A DNA stretch of 64,000 nucleotides from Candidatus Peribacteria bacterium RIFOXYB1_FULL_54_35 (GTDB taxonomy: Bacteria > Patescibacteriota > Gracilibacteria > Peribacterales > Peribacteraceae), in the NCBI GenBank assembly GCA_001787755.1, contig MFYJ01000007.1, positions 146,585 through 210,584 on the forward strand. The letters are read 5' to 3'. The position numbers and the translations under genes were made by a program. The first letter of the stretch is position 1. Every line of letters starts with the position of its first letter. Below are positions 18 to 57,827 of the stretch, piece by piece. The notes under the pieces were generated by a model, which had not been told where the DNA came from, ran no database searches, and saw nothing but the letters and a program-made list of their open reading frames with translations.

Positions 18-2402
18 ATGAGCCTGATCGACAACATTCGAAAAAATAATCCTGTGCTTTCCTTCGATACTGTTCTGGAGAAGGCGCAGAAGGTCATTGA
101 CCGCATTGTGTTCGCTTCATTTTGCGAGGATGTCGGCCTCTTGCCGGAAAACAAGCTTGCTGAAGTCGTGGCATACACGGAGAAAGGAGGGTTGGACATG
201 CCGATTTGGGAGATTATGAAAAAATTCTTCGTCGCTATCGATAAAGGCAGTGAGAAGATGGAAATGCCGCATGGCTACAATGGCGAGCTCTTTAAACCGG
301 ATGCGGTGCTTGACGCTCTGACGATTGATGATGAAATTTGCCGCGAGTTTGTGCGCATCGGGCGTTTCGATTTCCGCGAAGACCTTTCTGCAAATATCCT
401 CGGGCATATTTTTGAGCAGTCGATCACTGATATTGAGGAGATCAGACAGCAAAATGCACCAACAGAATCGACGCAAAAGACTTCAAAACGGAAAAAAGAT
501 GGCATCTTCTATACTCCGGAATATGTCGTGGACTTCATTGTTGCGAGCACGCTCGGCGAGTACTTGCAGGAGCTGGAGCGGTCATCATTGAGAGAGCACG
601 GCGTCAAAGAAGGTCTGCGAGATCAGAGTTACGAGAAGCGGGCTTTGAACGCCTACCTCGCGTACCGGGAACGTCTCCTGAAGCTCAAAGTGCTTGATCT
701 TGCCTGCGGGAGCGGCGCTTTCCTCGTGAAAGTGTTTGATTATCTGCGAAAAGAGCATGAGCGCATCGGAGGCATCCTTTTGGAATTACGCGGTGGTACT
801 GTGCTTGAGGAGCACGAAGAATCCGTGAAAATCTTCTTACATGAAAACATTTACGGCGTGGACTTGAATGCCGAGAGCGTTGAGATCACGAAGCTTTCAC
901 TATGGCTTAAGACAACACAGAAAGGGAAGAGGCTTGAAGACCTCAAGAACAACATCAAGTGTGGAAACAGCCTCATTGACGACTCCGAAGTCGCAGGAAC
1001 AAAAGCGTTTCACTGGGAAAAGGAATTTGCGGAGATTTTGAATTCGGGAGGTTTCGATATTATCGTCGGCAATCCGCCGTGGGGCGCGAATATCGACAAG
1101 GAGGCTGTGTGGCTTGGCAAGCATTATCCGGATTCGACGAAACACGCGAAGGACACGTACAAGCTCTTCATCGACAAGGGGTTGCAGCTCCTGAAGGAAA
1201 ACGGACGCTTCGGCTACATCGTCCCCAGCACGTTCCTCTACCAGCCGCGCTACCAGGACGTGCGCGACATCGTTGAGCGGTACCGGCACGGGGCCGTGAA
1301 TCTCGGCGAACATATTTTCGAGGGCGTCGATCTGCCCTGCGCCATTCTAGTCGTTCACAAACACAAGAAGGATAAATCAGCCATCGTGGACCTGACGAAA
1401 AAACCGCGTGGGGACATTCCATTTCTCTTGAGCAGCATCAATCTGGAGAACGAGATTGAGCGGGGTTCATCAGGTGACAAACTTCTCAAAGATACGGGGC
1501 TGACGTTTGACGATGTATTTGTATTGAAGGATGCTGGTATCAATTATCAAGCAGTGAATGTTGGAAAAGGGAAAAAAGGTGAAAGCAAATTAAGCTCGAA
1601 GTTGCTCTACTCTGGAAAGATTGGAAATCCATCCTTAGATGTCGAGTTCTGGAAGGGCGAAAACTTTCACAAGTATTCAATCGATGAATCAACGGAAAAT
1701 TTTGTACGAACAAATTATGAAGATTTCAAGGAGGATAACGAAAGGGTGATCCTTAATGACAAGTTCTTTTCAATACACCCAAAAATCCTCTGGAGACAAA
1801 CCGCCGACAGGATAATCGCGACAATTGATGAAAGGGGCATCTGGTTTGGACGCAGTGTTTTCGGCGGAGTCGTCAAAGATGAGTACAAGAAATCGGTGGA
1901 CATTTATTTTGCACTTGCGGTCTTCAATTCGGCATACATCGATTGTTTATATCAACGAAAAGTTTTAGAGACAGGCAGGATTTTCCCGCAAGTGAAACTG
2001 GCCTACATCAAGCCGTTGCCATTCGTCATACCGGACAAAGAAGCGCAGGATCGGATCGCAACACGGGTACGATCACTCATTGGGCTCGGTTCGTCGCAAC
2101 ATGAGAAACTCAGGCAAGTGCAGCAGTTACTGAAAGCGGAGTATCGCATGGAATCGATACCGAAGAAGCTGCAGAAACTCTGGGAGCTTTCCTTCGATGA
2201 TTTTCTCAAAGCCCTCAAACTCAGGAACGTATCTTTGCCGAAGAAGCAGGAATTGATGGAGTACTTCGAGCAGCAGAAAACGGCGCTCTCGACGGTCGCG
2301 GATCAGATCGAAACTCTGCAGAGAGAAATTGACGAGATGGTATGCGATGCGTATGGGCTGACGAAGGAGGAAAGAGCAATTGTTTTACGAAGCGCCACAT
2401 GA
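18..2402 (+). CDS. N6-adenine DNA methyltransferase, MmeI/Eco57I-like (type IIG/IIL-like enzyme or its MTase-TRD part); possibly 5'-truncated by the window edge
   Basis: 794-aa ORF. SAM motif I VLDLACGSGAFL and catalytic motif IV IVGNPPWG in gamma-class order. The N-terminal helical region (FASFCEDVGLLP, YNGELF, ILGHIFEQS) resembles MmeI/PglX-type enzymes. TaqI_C-like C-terminal specificity region. The frame is open from nt 3 up to the ATG at 18. Confidence 0.8.
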   Translation: MSLIDNIRKNNPVLSFDTVLEKAQKVIDRIVFASFCEDVGLLPENKLAEVVAYTEKGGLDMPIWEIMKKFFVAIDKGSEKMEMPHGYNGELFKPDAVLDALTIDDEICREFVRIGRFDFREDLSANILGHIFEQSITDIEEIRQQNAPTESTQKTSKRKKDGIFYTPEYVVDFIVASTLGEYLQELERSSLREHGVKEGLRDQSYEKRALNAYLAYRERLLKLKVLDLACGSGAFLVKVFDYLRKEHERIGGILLELRGGTVLEEHEESVKIFLHENIYGVDLNAESVEITKLSLWLKTTQKGKRLEDLKNNIKCGNSLIDDSEVAGTKAFHWEKEFAEILNSGGFDIIVGNPPWGANIDKEAVWLGKHYPDSTKHAKDTYKLFIDKGLQLLKENGRFGYIVPSTFLYQPRYQDVRDIVERYRHGAVNLGEHIFEGVDLPCAILVVHKHKKDKSAIVDLTKKPRGDIPFLLSSINLENEIERGSSGDKLLKDTGLTFDDVFVLKDAGINYQAVNVGKGKKGESKLSSKLLYSGKIGNPSLDVEFWKGENFHKYSIDESTENFVRTNYEDFKEDNERVILNDKFFSIHPKILWRQTADRIIATIDERGIWFGRSVFGGVVKDEYKKSVDIYFALAVFNSAYIDCLYQRKVLETGRIFPQVKLAYIKPLPFVIPDKEAQDRIATRVRSLIGLGSSQHEKLRQVQQLLKAEYRMESIPKKLQKLWELSFDDFLKALKLRNVSLPKKQELMEYFEQQKTALSTVADQIETLQREIDEMVCDAYGLTKEERAIVLRSAT

Positions 2403-3775
2403 AACCAGATATTACAATAGACGAGGCAACCGATCCGCGTACGTTGGCTCAGCCTCCTTTCGTCGAGTGTCCGCGATGTCATAAACAGACGAATGGTGTA
2501 TGGCACATTGGAGTGCGTTGTTATTTGCGTCTCTGTTCCGAATGTCCAATGCCGGACCCCAATCGTGGAGAGAAACCGGAAATGATCTCTTTGCCGAAGA
2601 TAGAAAAGAAAGTGATTTACTTGGATCAGCATGTCATCAGCAGCATGGCTAAGGCACTCAGGCCGGAGCTGCAGCGAACGCAGAAGATGGAGACTCGTAT
2701 CCAAGAAGACTGGATCAAACTCTTCCGGAAGTTGGATCGGCTGCGCCGCTTGCAAATGATTGTCTGCCCGTTCTCGATGCACCATCGGAGAGAGTCCTTC
2801 ATGGATGATCGGATCTATAAGTATTTGAAGACGTTGTACAAACGGCTGGCGAACGGCGTGGAGTTCTTTGAACCATTGAAAGTCCTATCCATCCAAGTGA
2901 TGCAGTACGCACGACACCATTTGGATCACTCGCAGCCTGCGTTCATCGACAATCCGCAAACCGTTGTTCTCGGCACCATCAACTCGTGGGAACGATACTC
3001 ACTGAAGGCTGGTATGCAGGACTACGGATGGAAACCCGAAGGAGCGGAATTAATGAGAAAACAAAACGCCGAATCCCATCGGATATTTCAAGAAATATAC
3101 GAACGCTGGAAGCAGGAAGGCATGAGCATCGAGGACCGAATCGAGGAAGAATCCCAAGGCTTCTCCAAATTCCTACTACAAAAAGCGCGGGAGCAATTCG
3201 GTATGCCCATCGAGCCACAGCTTGCTCAGCAGATCGAGGTAGAAATGGTGGACGACCAACATGCCTACATCAAATTGGTCGATGATGTGTACCAGCTATT
3301 CTCCGGTGGTTCGGCGATCATCAATCCCTCCCTCCTCCGGCACATGATTGATTTCTTGGCGGGTGACGATTTGAGAAAACAGGTGCCGACAATTCGGATC
3401 GAGCCGCTTCTCTGGGCGACATTGGCGAGACAGGCTGCTGCCGCAAAGGGGCGCAAAGAAGAAATTGATCATGGGGACTTCAATGATATTGGTGCGATTG
3501 CCAATATTCTACCCTATTGCGATGTAATGACAGTTGACAGAGCGTGGCATGGAAGATTGCGAGAGAATCCAGCCGCACAGGAAATGAAGAATTACAGGGC
3601 AAAGATTGTGTCTAGGAGCAATCTGCAGGAGATCATGGAGTATCTTGATCAAATCGAACGAGAGACTCCGAATCGGGTTCTGGAAGCTGTTCAGGAAGTA
3701 TGTGGAAGTCTTGAGGAGGAAGACCCCTTTGGTGAAGAAGAGATGAAACTGTATTCCAAATCGGTAAAGGACTGA
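2399..3775 (+). CDS. hypothetical protein with N-terminal four-Cys zinc ribbon and a possible split PIN-like nuclease signature
   Basis: In-frame ATG at 2399 forms an ATGA overlap with the MTase stop (2400-2402). CPRC...CSEC near the N-terminus, then KKVIYLDQHVIS, and DIGAIANILPYCDVMTVDRAW near the C-terminus. No family recognised. Confidence 0.65.
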   Translation: MKPDITIDEATDPRTLAQPPFVECPRCHKQTNGVWHIGVRCYLRLCSECPMPDPNRGEKPEMISLPKIEKKVIYLDQHVISSMAKALRPELQRTQKMETRIQEDWIKLFRKLDRLRRLQMIVCPFSMHHRRESFMDDRIYKYLKTLYKRLANGVEFFEPLKVLSIQVMQYARHHLDHSQPAFIDNPQTVVLGTINSWERYSLKAGMQDYGWKPEGAELMRKQNAESHRIFQEIYERWKQEGMSIEDRIEEESQGFSKFLLQKAREQFGMPIEPQLAQQIEVEMVDDQHAYIKLVDDVYQLFSGGSAIINPSLLRHMIDFLAGDDLRKQVPTIRIEPLLWATLARQAAAAKGRKEEIDHGDFNDIGAIANILPYCDVMTVDRAWHGRLRENPAAQEMKNYRAKIVSRSNLQEIMEYLDQIERETPNRVLEAVQEVCGSLEEEDPFGEEEMKLYSKSVKD

Positions 3776-3798
3776 TCCAGAAAAGCCCGCCGCTGGCG

Positions 3799-3818
3799 AA
3801 AACAAAGTTCGTTCCGAT
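3799..3818. repeat. 20-bp segment exactly inverted at 5416-5435
   Basis: AAAACAAAGTTCGTTCCGAT versus ATCGGAACGAACTTTGTTTT. The match breaks on both sides. Confidence 0.9.
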
Positions 3819-3874
3819 CGTTTTCACGGGCTCTTTTGCGGTTTTGCTGCGATGTCCGGCAAGTTTGTACGGTA

Positions 3875-3917
3875 GCGCGGCGGCTGCCCCAGCCCGAAGG
3901 TTTTTCAGCCGCCGCGC
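3875..3917. other. GC-rich hairpin (12-bp perfect stem, 19-nt loop)
   Basis: GCGCGGCGGCTG (3875-3886) pairs with CAGCCGCCGCGC (3906-3917). Only a weak T-run follows, so terminator function is uncertain. Confidence 0.6.
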
Positions 3918-3958
3918 CAGTTTGTGCGAAAATCGGTTCGGATTTTTTCGAAAGCGCT

Positions 3959-4037
3959 CCACCAATCACGAAATCCGCGCGAATGCGCGAGCACGCGCCA
4001 GCCGATCGCGGCTTCCCACTGCACCGCGTTCCCTTTC
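3959..4037. repeat. left copy of a 79-bp perfect inverted repeat
   Basis: CCACCAATCACGAAATCCGCGCGAATGCGCGAGCACGCGCCAGCCGATCGCGGCTTCCCACTGCACCGCGTTCCCTTTC is the exact reverse complement of 5436-5514. Confidence 0.95.
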
Positions 4038-4074
4038 GTACGCCAGCGGCGGGCTTTTCTGATACCCTGCGACC

Positions 4075-5550
4075 ATGAAAGTCATCGTGTACTGCCGCAA
4101 ATCCACAGAACAGGATGATCGCCAGATTCTCTCGATTGATGCGCAGCTTCGTGAGCTGCGCGAATACGCCGCAAAAGAACAGTTGGAAATCGTCGCCTCG
4201 CTCCGCGAGGCCAAAACCGCAAAAGAGCCCGGGCGAACCGAGTTCGCCAGAATGTTGGAAATTGTAGAGAAAGGAGGAGCAGACGGAATTCTCGCATGGC
4301 ATCCCGACAGACTCGCCAGGAACTCTGTAGACGGGGGGAGGATTATTCATCTTCTGGACACCGGCAAGCTCAAAGCGCTGAAGTTTCCCACTTTCTGGTT
4401 TGAGCCGACTCCGCAAGGGAAATTTATGCTCAACATTGCTTTCGGCCAGTCCAAGTACTACGTGGACAACCTTGCCGAGAATGTGAAACGCGGCATGCGC
4501 GAGAAAGTGCGCCGAGGCGAGTGGACGTGGCCTGCACCGCTTGGATACGTCAACAACCGAGAGGAGCGGAACATTGAGCCGGACCCCGAGAAATCGCCAA
4601 TCGTGCGCAAGGCGTTCCAAATGTACGCCACGGGAGCTCATACGCTTCTCTCGCTCCGAAACGAACTCACACTCCTCGGGCTTCGCACGCGCAAAGGCAA
4701 GGTGCTGCCGGTGTCCAATGTCCAGAAGATGCTCAAGCATCATGCGTACTACGGAGTCATCAGCATGAACGGGGAGCTGTTCCCCGGCGCGTTCGAGCCA
4801 ATTGTGAGCAGGAGACTGTTCGACGCAGCGCAGGAAGTCATGCACTTTAAGAGCAAAACCAAGCGCAGGAGAAAGCATGAGCTTCCCTTCACGGGCTTCC
4901 TGCACTGCTCAGCCTGCACCTGCGCGATAACTGCTGAAATCCAGAAAGGTCACCACTATTACCGCTGCACGCACAAGCGCGGTCCCTGCGACCAGCGCAA
5001 ATACCTGCGCGAGGAGGGATTGCTCAAAGAGGTGCGCACCATCGTCGAACGCGTCTCACTGCCCGATGACTGGGTGGACAACATGCTTGCCGAACTCGAC
5101 AAGGAGGAAGCCGAGGGAAAGTCAGATCATCGGACCTCTGTTCAGCGCCTCGAAGATGAGCGGAAGGGCATCGATCAGAAGCTCGATACCCTTCTTGATC
5201 TGCGACTGGAGGGGGCGCTCGATACCGGAGAATACCTTGTGCGAAAGAACGCGCTGGTGTCCTGTAAAGTCGAGATTGGTCAACAGATCAAGGATGCTGA
5301 ACAGAGTTGCTCACATTGGCTCGAACCCATGCGAGAGATGATTGTACGCAGTCGTGAAGCCAAGAAACTGCTCACGACGGAAAACTACTCGGAATTTCCA
5401 ACATTCCTTAAACGCATCGGAACGAACTTTGTTTTGAAAGGGAACGCGGTGCAGTGGGAAGCCGCGATCGGCTGGCGCGTGCTCGCGCATTCGCGCGGAT
5501 TTCGTGATTGGTGGGTCAGGTGGGATTTGAACCCACGGCCAATTGCTTAA
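4075..5550 (+). CDS. large serine recombinase (resolvase/invertase N-domain, recombinase domain, zinc ribbon, coiled coil)
   Basis: N-terminus MKVIVYCRKSTEQDDRQ with catalytic Ser context and HPDRLARN. Cys cluster CSACTCAITAEIQKGHHYYRCTHKRGPC. The ORF runs through the right 79-bp repeat and 42 nt into tRNA-Lys, stopping at a TAA antisense to the anticodon loop. Confidence 0.9.
   Translation: MKVIVYCRKSTEQDDRQILSIDAQLRELREYAAKEQLEIVASLREAKTAKEPGRTEFARMLEIVEKGGADGILAWHPDRLARNSVDGGRIIHLLDTGKLKALKFPTFWFEPTPQGKFMLNIAFGQSKYYVDNLAENVKRGMREKVRRGEWTWPAPLGYVNNREERNIEPDPEKSPIVRKAFQMYATGAHTLLSLRNELTLLGLRTRKGKVLPVSNVQKMLKHHAYYGVISMNGELFPGAFEPIVSRRLFDAAQEVMHFKSKTKRRRKHELPFTGFLHCSACTCAITAEIQKGHHYYRCTHKRGPCDQRKYLREEGLLKEVRTIVERVSLPDDWVDNMLAELDKEEAEGKSDHRTSVQRLEDERKGIDQKLDTLLDLRLEGALDTGEYLVRKNALVSCKVEIGQQIKDAEQSCSHWLEPMREMIVRSREAKKLLTTENYSEFPTFLKRIGTNFVLKGNAVQWEAAIGWRVLAHSRGFRDWWVRWDLNPRPIA
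5436..5514. repeat. right copy of the 79-bp perfect inverted repeat
   Basis: Exact reverse complement of 3959-4037. Its last 6 nt (TGGTGG) encode the CC-A-CCA 3' end of tRNA-Lys. Confidence 0.95.
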
Positions 5551-5585
5551 GAGGCAACTGCTCTACCGGGCTGAGCTACTGACCC
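5509..5585 (-). tRNA. tRNA-Lys (anticodon CUU), CCA encoded
   Basis: Minus-strand read GGGTCAG TA GCTC AGCCCGGTA GAGC A GTTGC CTCTTAA GCAAT TGGCC GTGGG TTCAAAT CCCAC CTGACCC A CCA (77 nt). Confidence 0.92.
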
Positions 5586-10891: not shown

Positions 10892-10918
10892 TACTTGCTT
10901 TCCTACCCACTCCTCATC

Positions 10919-12199
10919 ATGTCCGACACACTTCGTTCTCTCTTCAGCGGCAGCAGCGGCGGTGGCAGTAATGGTTCTGCTGGTGACCGTTCCGCTGGTT
11001 CCGGCTCCTCGTCCTCGTCCTCGTCCTCCTCTTCTTCGCGCGAGGTGCGTCCGGATGTTTCACCTGGGGCAGATATCCGCGTCCTTGGCGCGGGCGGCGG
11101 CGGCGCCAATGCAGTGCGCCGCATGCTGGAGGCAAAGGTGCAGGGGGTTGAATTCATTGCAGTGAATACCGATGTGCAGGCGCTCTACCACAATCCTGCG
11201 CCCAAGAAGATCACCATCGGGCGGGGAACGACGCGCGGCCTCGGGGCAGGAGCGAATCCTGCCGTGGGCAAGAAGGCGGCAGAGGAAAGCAGCGAGGAGA
11301 TCAAGTCTGCCCTCGAAGGTGCAGATATGCTCTTCATTACCGCCGGTCTCGGCGGAGGGACGGGGAGTGGCAGCGTGCCGATCATTGCCGAAATTGCCCG
11401 GAGCATGGATATCCTCACGGTTGCAGTTGTCACCAAACCCTTCAGCTTTGAGGGGCTCAAGCGCAAGCACCAGTGCGATGAGGCACTGGAGAACCTGCGG
11501 GGGAAAGTAGACACCCTCATCACCATTCCGAATGACAAGATCCTCTCTCTCATCGACAAGACCACGCCGCTCACAGAAGCGTTCGCCGTGGTGGATGAAG
11601 TCCTTCAGCATGCCATAGAAGGCATTGCCAGCCTCATTACCGTGCACGGTCTCGTGAACGTGGACTTCGCAGACGTGAAATCCATCATGCGGGATGCCGG
11701 CACGTCCCTCATGGGCATCGGCTACGGCACCGGCGACAACCGGGCGGCGGAAGCTGCTCGCGCAGCGGTGGACAGCCCGCTCCTCGAGCTCTCCATTACC
11801 GGCGCCAAGGGTGTGCTCTTCAATATCACGGGCGGGAACGATCTCTCCATGTACGAGGTCGACGAGGCGGCACGCATCATCACCGAAGCCGCGGATCCGG
11901 AGGCGAACATTATCTTCGGTGCGGTGATAGACGAGAACTTTACCGGCGAAGTGAAGTGTACGGTGATTGCAACGGGCTTTGAGCCGGCACCGGACATCAC
12001 ATCGTTCAAGGCGGCTCCCGGAGTGCTCAAGAAATCTTTCGCTTCTCCCCATGGCCTCTCTGCGTTCTCCTCTTCCGAGGATCTGGATGCAGAAGAGTCG
12101 AGGAAGCGCCCATTCCTGGAGGCGAAGTCCACGGCCATGGAATTGAATGAAGAGGAGCTGGAGGTCCCGGCTTTCATGCGAAAGCCCATCAGTAAGTAA
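10919..12199 (+). CDS. ftsZ: cell division protein FtsZ with low-complexity Ser/Gly N-terminal extension
   Basis: GAGGGGANAV, NTDVQAL and the tubulin signature GLGGGTGSG. First ATG at 10919; the track start at 10895 is a non-ATG codon. Confidence 0.95.
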   Translation: MSDTLRSLFSGSSGGGSNGSAGDRSAGSGSSSSSSSSSSSREVRPDVSPGADIRVLGAGGGGANAVRRMLEAKVQGVEFIAVNTDVQALYHNPAPKKITIGRGTTRGLGAGANPAVGKKAAEESSEEIKSALEGADMLFITAGLGGGTGSGSVPIIAEIARSMDILTVAVVTKPFSFEGLKRKHQCDEALENLRGKVDTLITIPNDKILSLIDKTTPLTEAFAVVDEVLQHAIEGIASLITVHGLVNVDFADVKSIMRDAGTSLMGIGYGTGDNRAAEAARAAVDSPLLELSITGAKGVLFNITGGNDLSMYEVDEAARIITEAADPEANIIFGAVIDENFTGEVKCTVIATGFEPAPDITSFKAAPGVLKKSFASPHGLSAFSSSEDLDAEESRKRPFLEAKSTAMELNEEELEVPAFMRKPISK

Positions 12200-26382: not shown

Positions 26383-26402
26383 TGGTGGGTAGCACTGGAT
26401 TC
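26383..26402 (-). repeat. duplicate of the last 20 nt of tRNA-Val (T-loop to CCA)
   Basis: TGGTGGGTAGCACTGGATTC is identical to 26486-26505. It is separated from the intact tRNA by 83 nt. Confidence 0.95.
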
Positions 26403-26485
26403 CCTTCGTCTCATTCGACTGAGGCGAATTCGCTCAGGACAGGCTTCTCATCCAGTTGCAGATACAACTCTTCATATTGTTTGTG

Positions 26486-26562
26486 GTGAGTATTCTGGTG
26501 GGTAGCACTGGATTCGAACCAGTGACCTCCGCGATGTCAACGCGACGCTCTAACCAACTGAG
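26486..26562 (-). tRNA. tRNA-Val (anticodon GAC), CCA encoded
   Basis: GGGTAGC TA GCTC AGTTGGTTA GAGC G TCGCG TTGACAT CGCGG AGGTC ACTGG TTCGAAT CCAGT GCTACCC A CCA. Confidence 0.92.
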
Positions 26563-26704
26563 CTAGCTACCCTTTAGAAGGCTGCTGAAGGGTACCAATT
26601 CTCACGGGGGGCAACAAGGGACGCCTTAATTTCTTTTGTGAAGTTTTCAGCCGCAAATGTCTTGAAAGGCTTCTTCCACAGAGCTTCATCAAGGCGTCCC
26701 GCGC

Positions 26705-41945: not shown

Positions 41946-42029
41946 CATGAGCGAGCGGCAGCCCAAGGTTCTTCGATTCGCCGCTTCGCGGTTCACTCAG
42001 AGTCACTCGCCTCGCTGCCGCGAGTCGAA
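41946..42029 (-). repeat. about 84-nt tRNA-flank element, copy a
   Basis: About 85% identical to 57668-57750. It abuts the displaced tRNA-Pro 3' fragment and contains the GCCGC-TTC-GCGGC hairpin. Confidence 0.9.
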
Positions 42030-42048
42030 TGGTCGGGGCGACTGGACT
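42030..42048 (-). repeat. duplicate of the last 19 nt of tRNA-Pro
   Basis: TGGTCGGGGCGACTGGACT is identical to 42149-42167 (21 nt if the preceding AA is counted). Confidence 0.95.
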
Positions 42049-42148: not shown

Positions 42149-42225
42149 TGGTCGGGGCGACTGGACTCGAACCAGCGACCACTTGCACCCCATGCAAGCA
42201 TTCTAGCCAACTGAACTACGCCCCG
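42149..42225 (-). tRNA. tRNA-Pro (anticodon GGG), CCA encoded
   Basis: CGGGGCG TA GTTC AGTTGGCTA GAAT G CTTGC ATGGGGT GCAAG TGGTC GCTGG TTCGAGT CCAGT CGCCCCG A CCA. Confidence 0.9.

Positions 42226-57750: not shown

Positions 57751-57827
<77 letters not shown>

What the first reader, a model, noticed from the sequence alone, without database searches (positions are those of the whole stretch)
3959..5514. Perfect 79-bp inverted repeat encloses the large serine recombinase gene and completes the 3' end of tRNA-Lys
3959-4037 is the exact reverse complement of 5436-5514. I checked all 79 positions by hand, and the match breaks on both sides.

The repeats bracket only the 491-codon serine recombinase gene. 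The resulting 1,556-bp unit looks either like an IS-like element with long terminal inverted repeats or like a recombinase-bearing invertible segment.

The outer 6 nt of the right copy (TGGTGG, which is CCACCA on the tRNA strand) are the last two acceptor-stem bases, the discriminator and the CCA of tRNA-Lys(CUU). The tRNA gene is therefore complete only because of the repeat.

The recombinase ORF has no stop inside the repeat. It reads 42 nt into the tRNA gene and ends at a TAA antisense to the anticodon loop, so its C-terminus depends on what flanks the repeat.

Perfect identity over 79 bp implies recent duplication, gene conversion or ongoing recombination. Large serine recombinases are known integrases, transposases and invertases, but I cannot match this architecture to a described element family.
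Basis: partly seen in the sequence, partly recalled or inferred. Interest (0 to 1): 0.72.

Follow-up and report, generated by a model that had tools for sequence, protein, structure and literature searches.

The report
Inverted attP copies flank island integrase
The 79-base inverted repeat is real: it is half of a second, inverted copy of the attachment site of a 6.4-kb mobile island that a large serine integrase inserted into the 3' end of tRNA-Lys, and the same layout recurs in dozens of related islands of ultra-small (CPR) bacteria without any published description that I could find.

Summary
3959-4037 is the exact reverse complement of 5436-5514, and the recombinase ORF (4075-5550) reads 42 nt into tRNA-Lys(CUU).

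The interpretation needs correcting. Near-identical contigs of the same species with and without the insert show that the mobile unit is a 6,381-bp island, not the 1,556-bp unit. Its left end lies 872 nt before the window start. It crossed over within the 6 bp TGGTGG, the antisense of the tRNA's CCACCA. The empty site already has an intact tRNA.

The right arm is the P arm of attP and also encodes the last 26 conserved codons of the integrase. The left arm belongs to a complete 191-nt inverted copy of attP (3847-4037) just upstream of the gene. Its other half mirrors the island's left end.

This double-attP layout occurs in 49 of 53 testable relatives (45-92% identity) at 14 kinds of tRNA, and the arms are mostly 98-100% identical. 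One subfamily adds short co-varying inverted gene fragments and a covarying 17-nt palindrome inside the gene.

What the second attP does is not settled. My leading guess is an integrase-binding operator or spare attP kept identical by gene conversion. An inversion switch is the main rival.

The parts
18..2402 (+). Cargo gene 1: C-terminal 794 codons of a 1021-aa MmeI/Eco57I-type restriction-modification enzyme. Its start and the island's left end (attL, at window -872) lie before the window.
   Evidence: Pfam Eco57I, N6_Mtase, TaqI_C, MmeI_Mtase. The full gene is at L087 2412-5477. Window = L087 minus 3075, with 0 mismatches over 12 kb.
2342..3775 (+). Cargo gene 2: 477-aa ORF of unknown function.
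   Evidence: ORF list; no Pfam family. It lies inside the 6,381-bp insertion.
3778..3798 (+). Piece A: exact reverse complement of 4041-4061, the integrase 5' flank. It reads as a terminator-like hairpin plus T run on the minus strand.
   Evidence: The equivalent piece is present in about 25 relatives.
3799..3823 (+). Piece B: reverse complement of 5410-5435 (gene nt 1336-1361, directly before the right arm).
   Evidence: It sits at the same gene position in relatives.
3827..3846 (+). Piece C1: reverse complement of 4212-4231 (gene nt 138-157). It abuts the internal attP copy.
   Evidence: The breakpoint at gene nt 138 is conserved in relatives.
3847..4037 (-). Internal, intact, inverted copy of attP (P*), in three parts:
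- 3847-3958: copy of the P' arm, equal to the reverse complement of the island's left-terminal 112 nt.
- 3959-3964: CCACCA, the core.
- 3965-4037: copy of the P arm.
   Evidence: 118-nt 100% inverted match to L087 2203-2320, and 79-nt 100% inverted match to 5436-5514. The two matches overlap in the 6-nt core.
4041..4061 (+). Piece A': the integrase 5' flank, a hairpin plus T run ending 14 nt before the ATG. It is the partner of A.
4075..5550 (+). Large serine recombinase (integrase) ORF of 491 codons. The conserved protein ends at about W480; the last 11 codons are antisense tRNA.
   Evidence: Pfam domains. In the alignment of 27 homologues the tails diverge after the WW that is antisense to CCACCA.
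4168..4194 (+). Piece G1' (gene nt 94-120). Its exact reverse complement abuts the island's left-end arm (L087 2321-2347, off window).
   Evidence: It is conserved in relatives.
4195..4211 (+). 17-nt palindrome h inside the coding region (GCCTCGC-TCC-GCGAGGC, encoding ASLREA). It lies exactly between G1' and C1'.
   Evidence: Sequence. Compensatory covariation in subfamily 1.
5436..5514 (+). Together with the tRNA this forms attR.
   Evidence: Junction comparison with the empty site.
5509..5585 (-). tRNA-Lys(CUU). Its 3' half is the B' arm of the original attB.
   Evidence: The tRNA is intact in empty-site contigs.

Best explanation
**What it is (shown).** The window holds the right-hand 5.5 kb of a 6,381-bp genomic island integrated into the 3' end of tRNA-Lys(CUU) of a CPR (Patescibacteria-type) bacterium. 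The integrase is the 491-aa large serine recombinase.
- Crossover took place within the 6 bp TGGTGG shared by attP and attB.
- attR is the integrase's own 3' coding end (P arm, 5436-5508), plus the core, plus the tRNA.
- attL is the chromosomal flank, plus the core, plus a 112-nt P' arm, and lies off the window.
- The P' arm carries a T-loop-like motif (ATCCGAACC) 5 nt further from the core than the real T-loop in the tRNA.

In the excised circle the gene would be bracketed by two identical, oppositely oriented attP regions of 191 bp. Integration splits one of them.

**How I think the second copy works (inferred, about 0.3-0.35 on its own).**
- It acts as an integrase-binding site in front of int, and in most relatives in front of a divergent cargo gene. 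This would resemble the res operator of Tn3.
- It is bracketed by terminator-like A/A' copies.
- It cannot recombine with attL, attR or the other attP, because these enzymes pair only attP with attB.
- It remains usable as an alternative attP by the circle.
- Gene conversion keeps it identical to the working attP.
For: **Island and att sites**
- The occupied contigs L087-L090 are identical to the window (0 mismatches over 12 kb for L087-L089, 4 for L090). They have TruB, then the island, then tRNA-Lys.
- Contigs L086 and L091 have TruB directly followed by ...GAGCGAAGTG|TGGTGG|GTCAGGTGGG (the tRNA). Their flanks are identical and offset by 6,381 bp.
- Contig L110 is the island plus 49 nt on each side, and L092 starts exactly at the boundary. 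Both alleles therefore seem to coexist in samples (inferred).

**Duplicated attP**
- The island's left 118 nt are 100% the reverse complement of 3847-3964.
- 3959-4037 is 100% the reverse complement of 5436-5514.

**Enzyme**
- Resolvase, Recombinase and Zn-ribbon domains.
- S10 is nearly invariant.

**Family-wide pattern**
- 49 of 53 testable loci have the inverted repeat.
- 28 are 100% identical and 41 are at least 98% identical.
- Arm length is 68-188 nt.
- The outer end lies 6-8 nt inside the tRNA in 36 of 39 loci.
- The left-end/internal repeat was found in about 20 islands.

**Concerted evolution of the arms**
- L001 and L002 each differ from the window at 1-3 positions, and each change is mirrored in both arms.

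**Other support**
- T-loop-like motif in all P' arms.
- A/A' are terminator-like, and rc(A) sits just upstream of the cargo ATG in several relatives.
- Cargo varies and there is no shared directionality-factor gene.
Against: Nothing here shows that the integrase binds the internal copy or represses anything.
- No promoter was found by the consensus scan, and there are no transcript data.
- An operator needs about 50 bp. It does not need 191-350 bp of perfect identity, so the length of the repeats hints at a function that depends on homology or duplex length.
- If both attP copies were equally usable for integration, about half of the integrants should have the gene flipped. I see 2 of about 72, both in contigs that end inside the repeat.
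- The short co-varying pieces A, B, C1 and G1 and the palindrome h are not explained by this model.
Confidence: 0.72

Rival explanations
1. Invertible integrase segment used as a flip-flop switch. Recombination between the two inverted attP arms flips 4038-5435, by RecA acting on 79-190 bp of perfect homology or by the integrase itself. Flipping would move int from convergent with the tRNA gene (silenced) to co-directional and downstream of it (expressed). Alternatively, in the circle it could support 2-micron-type amplification.
For: - The geometry matches the Hin H segment and the yeast 2-micron plasmid: a recombinase gene lies between inverted repeats that contain its sites.
- Arm lengths of 68-297 nt fall in the range where homologous recombination depends on length.
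- Arm identity of 98-100% requires frequent interaction between the arms.
- In L072 and L052 the tRNA abuts the upstream arm, followed by the 5'UTR and int, which is the flipped state.
- The design is symmetrical, so flipping leaves the tRNA and all att sites intact.
Against: - All 14 contigs carrying the identical protein have the same orientation, as do all other same-species contigs.
- About 70 of 72 relatives are canonical.
- Both flipped contigs stop inside the downstream arm, and their arms of about 130 nt may exceed the assembler's k (inferred). They could therefore be wrong paths through a repeat.
- A metagenome scan with the 79-mer found only canonical junctions.
- Large serine integrases are not known to recombine attP with attP (own knowledge).
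Confidence: 0.2
2. RNA-level control. Transcripts that include the upstream copy pair with the 3' end of the int mRNA (79 bp when integrated, 191 bp in the circle) and, through A/A', with the 5' flank. This would give fold-back inhibition of read-through transcripts, as in IS10. Alternatively it could give RNase III retroregulation that senses integration, as with lambda sib.
For: - The upstream region on the plus strand folds much better than shuffles (z -5.4), against z -2.6 for the minus strand. A/A' closes the fold.
- The attP core lies between int and a conserved, covarying GC-rich hairpin in the P' arm, which integration removes from the 3' end of int.
- Subfamily 2 has short matches between the 5'UTR and the coding region that include the -28..-10 region.
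- The palindrome h covaries at synonymous sites.
Against: - Mismatches in imperfect arms show no strand bias: 33 are G-U-compatible on the plus strand, 30 on the minus strand, and 38 are other types.
- The helices cannot all form in one molecule. B and C1 are contiguous, but their partners sit at opposite ends of the 191-bp stem.
- No Rfam family matches.
- The position of the transcription start is unknown. A' looks like a terminator, which would exclude the upstream copy from the int mRNA.
Confidence: 0.12
3. A relic without function. An ancestral inverted duplication or nested self-insertion of the integrase module left a second attP and gene fragments. These persist only because gene conversion with the active copy keeps refreshing them.
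For: - The cargo arc reads as the reverse complement of a circularised gene segment opened at the palindrome h. Nt 158-1332 are deleted and the 5' part is replaced by cargo.
- In L001 the B and C1 matches overlap by 7 nt, like a microhomology deletion junction.
- Mismatch types look neutral.
- Some loci have decaying arms of 84-90% identity (L003, L007, L009, L012, L031, L084).
Against: - Inverted repeats are unstable and costly, yet an intact upstream attP copy is retained in about 92% of loci. This holds across 45-92% protein identity, several phyla and two subfamilies with different arm boundaries.
- Pieces of 20-30 nt flanked by unrelated DNA are poor substrates for conversion. They are still 97.6-98.7% identical to their own gene, while the gene pieces are only about 80% alike between loci. 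Their breakpoints are also exact.
Confidence: 0.15
4. One reading: 3959-5514 is an autonomous IS-like element of 1,556 bp with 79-bp terminal inverted repeats.
For: - The repeats bracket only the recombinase gene.
- Large serine recombinases can act as transposases, for example TnpX and TndX (own knowledge).
- Contig L111 (1,601 nt) holds little more than this unit.
Against: - The presence/absence polymorphism covers 6,381 bp, not 1,556 bp.
- The left arm is not at an element end. Identity with the island's true left end continues for 112 nt beyond it.
- Sequence to the left of the arm (A, B, C1, C) is conserved with the module in relatives at other tRNAs.
- There is one copy in the window.
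- Sites in inverted orientation give inversion rather than excision with serine recombinases (own knowledge).
Confidence: 0.03

Closest known systems
Large serine integrases of phages and integrative elements (phiC31, Bxb1, A118/LI integrase, SPbeta SprA; transposon-type TnpX/TndX)
   Same: - The domain set is the same: Resolvase, Recombinase, Zn ribbon.
- There is a conserved N-terminal serine.
- attP and attB share only a short core.
- The att site abuts the integrase gene.
- P'-type and B'-type half-sites carry the same motif displaced by 5 bp. This is the arrangement described for the LI integrase zinc-ribbon-domain motif (own knowledge).
   Different: - The targets are the 3' ends of many different tRNA genes, which is normally the habit of tyrosine integrases.
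- The conserved T-loop serves as the shared half-site motif.
- The P arm is the enzyme's own C-terminal coding sequence.
- A second complete attP sits in inverted orientation upstream of the gene.
- No directionality-factor gene is conserved in 3-kb islands.
tRNA-targeting genomic islands and tycheposon-like cargo shuttles (mostly tyrosine integrases)
   Same: - They are small islands at tRNA 3' ends.
- The integrase lies next to the tRNA, and the tRNA end is regenerated.
- The cargo is variable and often defence-related: MmeI-type RM, GmrSD, DGR.
- Occupied and empty alleles coexist.
- Scars or tandem remnants occur at the same tRNA.
   Different: - The integrase uses serine chemistry, not tyrosine.
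- The direct repeat is only 6-8 bp in most members.
- The element is internally symmetrical, with both arcs of the circle bounded by inverted attP halves.
Hin/Gin/Cin invertible segments and the yeast 2-micron plasmid (FLP between 599-bp inverted repeats)
   Same: A recombinase gene lies between inverted repeats that contain its own recombination sites, and flipping would leave all sites unchanged.
   Different: - Here the sites are attP-type, which such enzymes normally do not recombine with each other.
- Two orientations within one population were not found.
- The enzyme's demonstrated activity in nature is insertion, shown by empty versus occupied sites.
CTXphi-type double attP (two inverted dif-like sites folding into a hairpin in ssDNA, used by XerCD)
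   Same: There are two inverted copies of the attachment site in one element.
   Different: - In CTXphi the copies are about 90 nt apart and work as a folded single strand with a tyrosine recombinase that exchanges one strand pair.
- Here they are 1.4 kb apart around the integrase gene.
- A serine recombinase cuts both strands, so a hairpin substrate would break the chromosome (inference).
Tn3/gamma-delta res as operator; lambda sib retroregulation; IS10 fold-back inhibition
   Same: These are precedents for three ideas:
- A recombinase site that doubles as operator between divergent genes.
- attP lying between int and a 3' RNA element, so that integration changes the fate of the int mRNA.
- Inverted repeats that silence read-through transcripts.
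   Different: None involves a full-length, perfectly maintained inverted duplicate of attP. These are analogies for function only. None was tested here.

Membership tests
Large serine recombinase (integrase) system | N-terminal resolvase catalytic domain with conserved serine, then a recombinase domain and a zinc-ribbon domain | tested here: met
   PF00239 (3.3e-23), PF07508 (1.1e-13) and PF13408 (8.3e-06) all score above their cut-offs. R8, K9 and S10 are nearly invariant in 27 homologues.
Large serine recombinase (integrase) system | Conservative insertion at a specific attB, with only a short core shared between attP and attB | tested here: met
   Comparing empty L086/L091 with occupied L087 shows a 6,381-bp insertion. 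Identity between the reconstructed attP and attB is limited to TGGTGG.
Large serine recombinase (integrase) system | Half-site motif displaced by about 5 bp between attP-type and attB-type arms | tested here: met
   ATCCGAACC starts 16 nt from the core in the P' arm. ATTTGAACC starts 11 nt from the core in the tRNA arm (sequence). A similar motif occurs in all P' arms examined. That this motif is the zinc-ribbon-domain site is an inference.
Large serine recombinase (integrase) system | Catalysis of attP x attB recombination by the protein; directionality factor for excision | not testable with these tools
   This needs biochemistry. No conserved candidate gene was found among the cargo of 21 islands.
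Insertion sequence / transposon bounded by terminal inverted repeats | The inverted repeats are the termini of the unit that moves | tested here: not met
   The polymorphic unit is 6,381 bp. The left 79-nt arm is internal, 4.8 kb from the true left end.
Insertion sequence / transposon bounded by terminal inverted repeats | Multiple copies or varied target sites within a genome | tested here: not met
   There is a single copy of the gene and of the 79-mer in the window. All 14 contigs carrying the identical protein share one context.
Site-specific invertible segment (Hin/Gin type) | Recombinase gene within or beside a segment flanked by inverted recombination sites | tested here: met
   4038-5435 is flanked by inverted copies of the attP core and P arm.
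Site-specific invertible segment (Hin/Gin type) | Both orientations present in a population | tested here: inconclusive
   Only one orientation was seen in all same-species contigs and in the JGI hits. Two relatives of other species (L072, L052) are flipped, but both contigs end inside the repeat. No read-level data were available.
tRNA-integrated genomic island | Insertion at a tRNA 3' end that regenerates the gene, with flanking direct repeats, an adjacent integrase and an empty allele in relatives | tested here: met
   TGGTGG is present at both junctions. The tRNA is intact both with and without the island. The integrase lies next to the tRNA. Some relatives have 18-22-nt displaced tRNA ends further out.

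The most novel reading that the evidence does not exclude
The double inverted attP, the exactly placed co-varying gene fragments (A, B, C1, G1) and the covarying palindrome inside the integrase gene would together form a programmed DNA-rearrangement device.

Homology-driven or integrase-driven flipping of the gene arc, the cargo arc or the attP cassette (which is itself flanked by the 21-29-bp A/A' repeat) would interconvert isomers. This would do one of two things:
- Switch integrase expression or excision competence.
- Convert the two attP copies from inverted to direct, releasing a minimal integrase-attP circle and leaving the cargo behind.

That would be a new way for a serine-integrase element to control directionality without a directionality factor, and a mechanism for cargo hand-over between elements.
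Probability: 0.22. Interest if true: 0.82.

Novelty: new variant of a known kind. Interest (0 to 1): 0.62.

Why it matters
Large serine integrases are prized genome-engineering tools, and their natural site rules are known from a handful of phages. This is a very large, uncharacterised clade:
- 7,928 of 8,000 scored candidate proteins matched at E <= 0.001.

The clade has three unusual properties:
- It specialises in tRNA 3' ends, using the universal T-loop as part of attB.
- The attP arm is encoded inside the enzyme's own C-terminus.
- It keeps a second inverted attP in front of the gene.

If the second site controls expression or directionality, it would show how 3-kb islands without a directionality factor manage integration and excision. 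It could also offer compact, self-regulating integration cassettes.

The islands also look like a main vehicle for defence and other accessory genes in CPR bacteria, whose means of gene exchange are poorly known. Cargo seen here includes MmeI-type RM, GmrSD and a DGR.

For assembly and annotation practice, these repeats explain why contigs often break next to this gene and why its ORF appears to run into tRNA genes.

Tried and rejected
1. **Assembly artefact: rejected.** The same sequence is present in 14 contigs from different assemblies, including k127 and k141 assemblies where k exceeds 79. The architecture also occurs in a complete genome (L045).
2. **Ordinary tRNA flank: rejected.** The arm encodes the conserved C-terminus, and the empty site has a different flank.
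3. **Direct tRNA-end repeat within the window: none found.** The left end was then located through same-species contigs.
4. **First neighbour look-up failed** because I gave a wrong frame for the minus-strand ORF. The DUF2000 neighbour worked.
5. **Odd C-terminal tails as a sign of flipped or circular forms: rejected.** P0005 and P0013 (tail WWS*) proved to be canonical insertions at tRNA-Ala.
6. **Metagenome scan with a degenerate 79-mer for flipped or circular junctions.** It gave only two contigs, both canonical attR.
7. **Viral contigs.** Only distant relatives were found, so this is not a typical phage integrase.
8. **Rfam.** Only the tRNA matched above its gathering score; one weak sub-threshold antisense hit (Plastid-ycf2, 25.9 vs 65.7 bits) overlaps the tRNA.
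9. **G-U strand-asymmetry test for RNA pairing.** There was no bias, 33 against 30. Power is weak because most mismatches come from decaying copies.
10. **One folded ssDNA or RNA structure with a 3-way and a 4-way junction: rejected.** The pairings are locally consistent but geometrically impossible all at once. A hairpin attP would also break the chromosome with a serine recombinase (inference).
11. **A shared cargo gene as directionality factor: not found.** Only a 70-aa HTH protein is shared, and only by 3 of 21 islands.
12. **The L086 tRNA SNP as evidence for a deeper crossover: rejected.** L091 is empty and has the normal tRNA.
13. **Literature.** Four searches found no description of this architecture.
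Full report
**1. The observation**

The repeat is exactly as described. Arms 3959-4037 and 5436-5514 are 79 nt, 100% complementary and 1398 nt apart. The match was verified by string comparison, and the 79-mer is unique in the window.

- tRNA-Lys(ctt) is at 5509-5585 on the minus strand. 5509-5514 TGGTGG is therefore the antisense of CC + A + CCA.
- The ORF 4075-5550 has 491 codons with Resolvase, Recombinase and Zn_ribbon_recom domains.
- It has no stop in the repeat and ends at a TAA that overlaps the anticodon.

| Piece | Left copy | Partner |
|---|---|---|
| A | 3778-3798 | 4041-4061 |
| B | 3799-3818 | 5416-5435 |
| C1 | 3820-3846 | about 4212-4238 |

**2. The right arm is coding sequence, not tRNA flank**

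The protein has thousands of homologues, mostly in Patescibacteria/CPR metagenome bins. In an alignment of 27 of them, G466 and W467 are invariant and the block KGxAVxWEAxxGWRxL...F..W is conserved. After that point the tails diverge.

Many tails read ...WW.(G)RDSNPR, which is the antisense translation of a tRNA CCA end and T arm. The whole clade therefore sits head-on against tRNA 3' ends. The arm 5436-5514 encodes the genuine C-terminus.

**3. The architecture is conserved**

The three closest relatives all carry a 79-nt inverted repeat with 1398 nt between the arms, next to tRNA-Lys:

| Locus | Protein identity | Arm complementarity |
|---|---|---|
| L001 | 91% | 100% |
| L002 | 92% | 100% |
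| L003 | 82% | 87% |

Homology between these loci starts at piece A and ends at the tRNA. The flanks beyond are unrelated. L001 and L002 differ from the window at 1-3 positions in the arm, and each difference is present in both of their own arms. The arms therefore evolve in concert.

I then surveyed 80 further loci from species-representative genomes, at 45-80% protein identity.
- In nearly all of them the gene runs antisense into a tRNA. Together with the loci at 82-92% identity, 14 tRNA types are targeted: Lys, Ser, Gln, Arg, Leu, Asn, Val, Tyr, Pro, Glu, Phe, Met, Ala and Asp.
- 49 of 53 testable loci have an inverted repeat of at least 60 nt between the upstream region and the gene's 3' end.
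- The median arm is 99 nt, with a range of 68-188 nt.
- 28 are 100% identical and 41 are at least 98% identical.
- The outer end lies 6 nt inside the tRNA in 25 loci, 7 nt in 7 and 8 nt in 4.
- Many contigs start or stop at the repeat.

**4. The real mobile unit**

I fetched contigs that encode the identical DUF2000 neighbour.
- **Occupied contigs:** L087-L089 are identical to the window over 12 kb, and L090 differs at 4 positions. One is NCBI GCA_001789085.1, contig MFYL01000013.1.
- **Empty contigs:** L086 and L091.

In the empty site, TruB is followed by ...GAGCGAAGTG|TGGTGG|GTCAGGTGGGATTTGAACC, the intact tRNA-Lys. The 250 nt ending at the core are identical between L086 and L087. L086 carries a private SNP in the tRNA, and L091 does not.

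In the occupied site the left junction reads ...GAGCGAAGTG|TGGTGG|AGCGCTTTCGAAAAAATCC....

- The insertion is 6,381 bp.
- Its left end is at window -872.
- attP and attB share exactly TGGTGG.
- Contig L110 is the island plus 49 nt on either side, and L092 begins exactly at the right boundary. I read this as both alleles coexisting in those samples.

The 1,556-bp unit is therefore not the element, and the tRNA does not depend on the repeat.

**5. What the 79-nt repeat is**

The island's left-terminal 118 nt (core plus 112 nt, called C') are 100% the reverse complement of window 3847-3964.

- 3847-4037 (191 nt) is therefore a complete inverted copy of the attP that forms when the island circularises (D' + TGGTGG + C').
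- The circle would consist of two arcs separated by two identical inverted attP regions:
  - The gene arc, 1398 bp.
  - The cargo arc, holding the MmeI-type RM and an unknown ORF.
- The same left-end/internal repeat was found in about 20 other islands of 3-8 kb.
- This includes a second subfamily with longer arms: D 127-188 nt and C 156-297 nt.

Cargo is variable:
- GmrSD.
- An FAD oxidoreductase.
- A DGR.
- A small HTH protein, in three islands.

No gene is shared by all islands, so there is no obvious directionality factor.

**6. Site anatomy**

- The P' arm carries ATCCGAACC starting 16 nt from the core.
- The tRNA arm carries its T-loop ATTTGAACC starting 11 nt from the core (read).
- An equivalent GTTCGRA/AAATCCGAAC motif is present in every P' arm inspected.

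A 5-bp displacement of one half-site motif between attP and attB is what was described for the zinc-ribbon domain of a large serine integrase (own knowledge: LI integrase-attP structure). It fits an enzyme family that uses the universal T-loop to address many tRNAs.

Further out, the P' arm has a GC-rich hairpin whose stem covaries between loci.

**7. Extra features of subfamily 1**

In about 25 loci spanning 46-100% identity the same mosaic recurs with the same breakpoints:

| Piece | Reverse complement of | Position |
|---|---|---|
| A | the 5' flank, -34..-14 | contiguous with B |
| B | gene nt about 1333-1360 | contiguous with A, next to C1 |
| C1 | gene nt 138-157 | abuts the internal attP |
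| G1 | gene nt about 93-120 | abuts the left-end arm |

- Each piece is 97.6-98.7% identical to its own gene, whereas the gene pieces are only about 80% alike between loci.
- The 17 nt between G1' and C1' (4195-4211) form a palindrome whose stem covaries: GCCTCGC/GCGAGGC, GCTTCCT/AGGAAGC, GCCTCTT/AAGAGGC.
- In one case, GACTCGC/GCGAGTC, the covariation comes with amino-acid changes.
- Pair 123-135 is C-G in 24 sequences and T-A in 26.
- Read as a whole, the cargo arc is the reverse complement of a circularised gene segment opened at that palindrome. Nt 158-1332 are deleted and the 5' part is replaced by cargo.
- The reverse complement of A often lies just upstream of a minus-strand cargo gene, at about the distance that A' lies from the int ATG.
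- A' is terminator-like.

I could not find one structure or process that explains all of this. The pairings are mutually incompatible in a single folded strand, and mismatch types show no RNA-strand bias.

**8. Orientation**

- Two relatives, L072 and L052, have the tRNA abutting the upstream arm, followed by the 5'UTR and the gene. This is what integration through the second attP, or flipping of the gene arc, would produce.
- Both contigs stop inside the downstream arm, and their arms are about 130 nt, so a wrong assembly path cannot be excluded.
- All same-species contigs and both JGI hits are canonical.
- L043 shows a second, 91%-identical gene copy followed by an intact D'-core-C' and then a canonical island. 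This is either a tandem array or a circle-type junction.

**9. Mechanism**

*Shown:* a serine-integrase island inserted at the tRNA-Lys CCA end by crossover in TGGTGG. The repeat is half of a duplicated, inverted attP.

*Inferred:* the second copy is most simply an integrase-binding site placed between int and cargo. It would be recombinationally silent in the integrated state and refreshed by gene conversion.

The length and perfection of the arms, and the unexplained mosaic, keep an inversion or rearrangement switch alive as the main rival. RNA-level control and a functionless relic are less likely, for the reasons given under the rivals.

**10. Novelty**

Four literature searches found no description of this clade's tRNA targeting or of a double inverted attP. 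The tycheposon paper mentions large serine recombinases in only a minority of elements, without this feature.

I rate this a new variant of a known kind: a serine-integrase island with an undescribed, conserved internal symmetry.

Noticed in passing
window 26384-26403 and 26496-26572; 42028-42048 and 42149-42225: tRNA-Val and tRNA-Pro each have a displaced direct copy of their last 20-21 nt lying 113-119 nt further left. The copy is still attached to the native hairpin flank (..GCGAGTCGAA, also seen left of tRNA-Met at 57751). The two inserts of about 95 nt resemble each other (TCCCTTCGTCT...CTTCTCATCC). They look like mini-insertions or scars of a tRNA-targeting element.
   Followed up: partly
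L094 2824-11063: A relative's island at tRNA-Ala(GGC) (63% identical integrase) carries a diversity-generating retroelement as cargo: RVT_1 reverse transcriptase, bAvd and an Lcl_C-type target gene.
   Followed up: no
L043 1-4664: The 3' two-thirds of a second integrase copy (90.7% identical) is followed by an intact D'-core-C' attP (840-1128). Then come cargo, the internal attP, the full integrase and tRNA-Asn. This is either a tandem array or an assembly through circle-junction reads.
   Followed up: partly
L001 4218-5332 and L003 3955-4951, compared with L086 7469-8664: The orientation of tRNA-Lys relative to the conserved TruB-pilin-PRC-Prs block is inverted between the window's species and the species of L001/L003. 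The rearrangement breakpoint lies right at this tRNA.
   Followed up: no
L086 8584-8660: One empty-site contig has a private SNP in tRNA-Lys (GTCAGCTGGG instead of GTCAGGTGGG) that would break the 49-65 T-stem pair. It lies 6 nt from the crossover core. The other empty contig, L091, has the normal tRNA.
   Followed up: yes
window 2342-2402: The two cargo ORFs overlap by 61 nt: the MmeI-type RM ends at 2402 and the unknown 477-aa ORF starts at 2342. Some gene callers start the second ORF 207 nt later, giving 408 aa.
   Followed up: no
window 3880-3925 and equivalent positions in relatives: A GC-rich hairpin in the P' arm (GCGCGGCGGCTG...CAGCCGCCGCGC) is conserved as a structure, with many compensatory changes and G-rich or tetraloop-like loops across relatives. 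Its sequence is nearly unchanged even at 63% protein identity in L094.
   Followed up: partly
window 10895-12199: FtsZ has a long Ser/Gly-rich N-terminal extension before the tubulin domain.
   Followed up: no
L054 1787-1900 and L045 7473-7590: The integrase runs into tRNA-like sequences with T-arm motifs that ARAGORN did not call. They may be intron-containing or otherwise unusual tRNA genes. A few other loci (L060, L040, L061, L012, L017) have no tRNA-like target at all.
   Followed up: no
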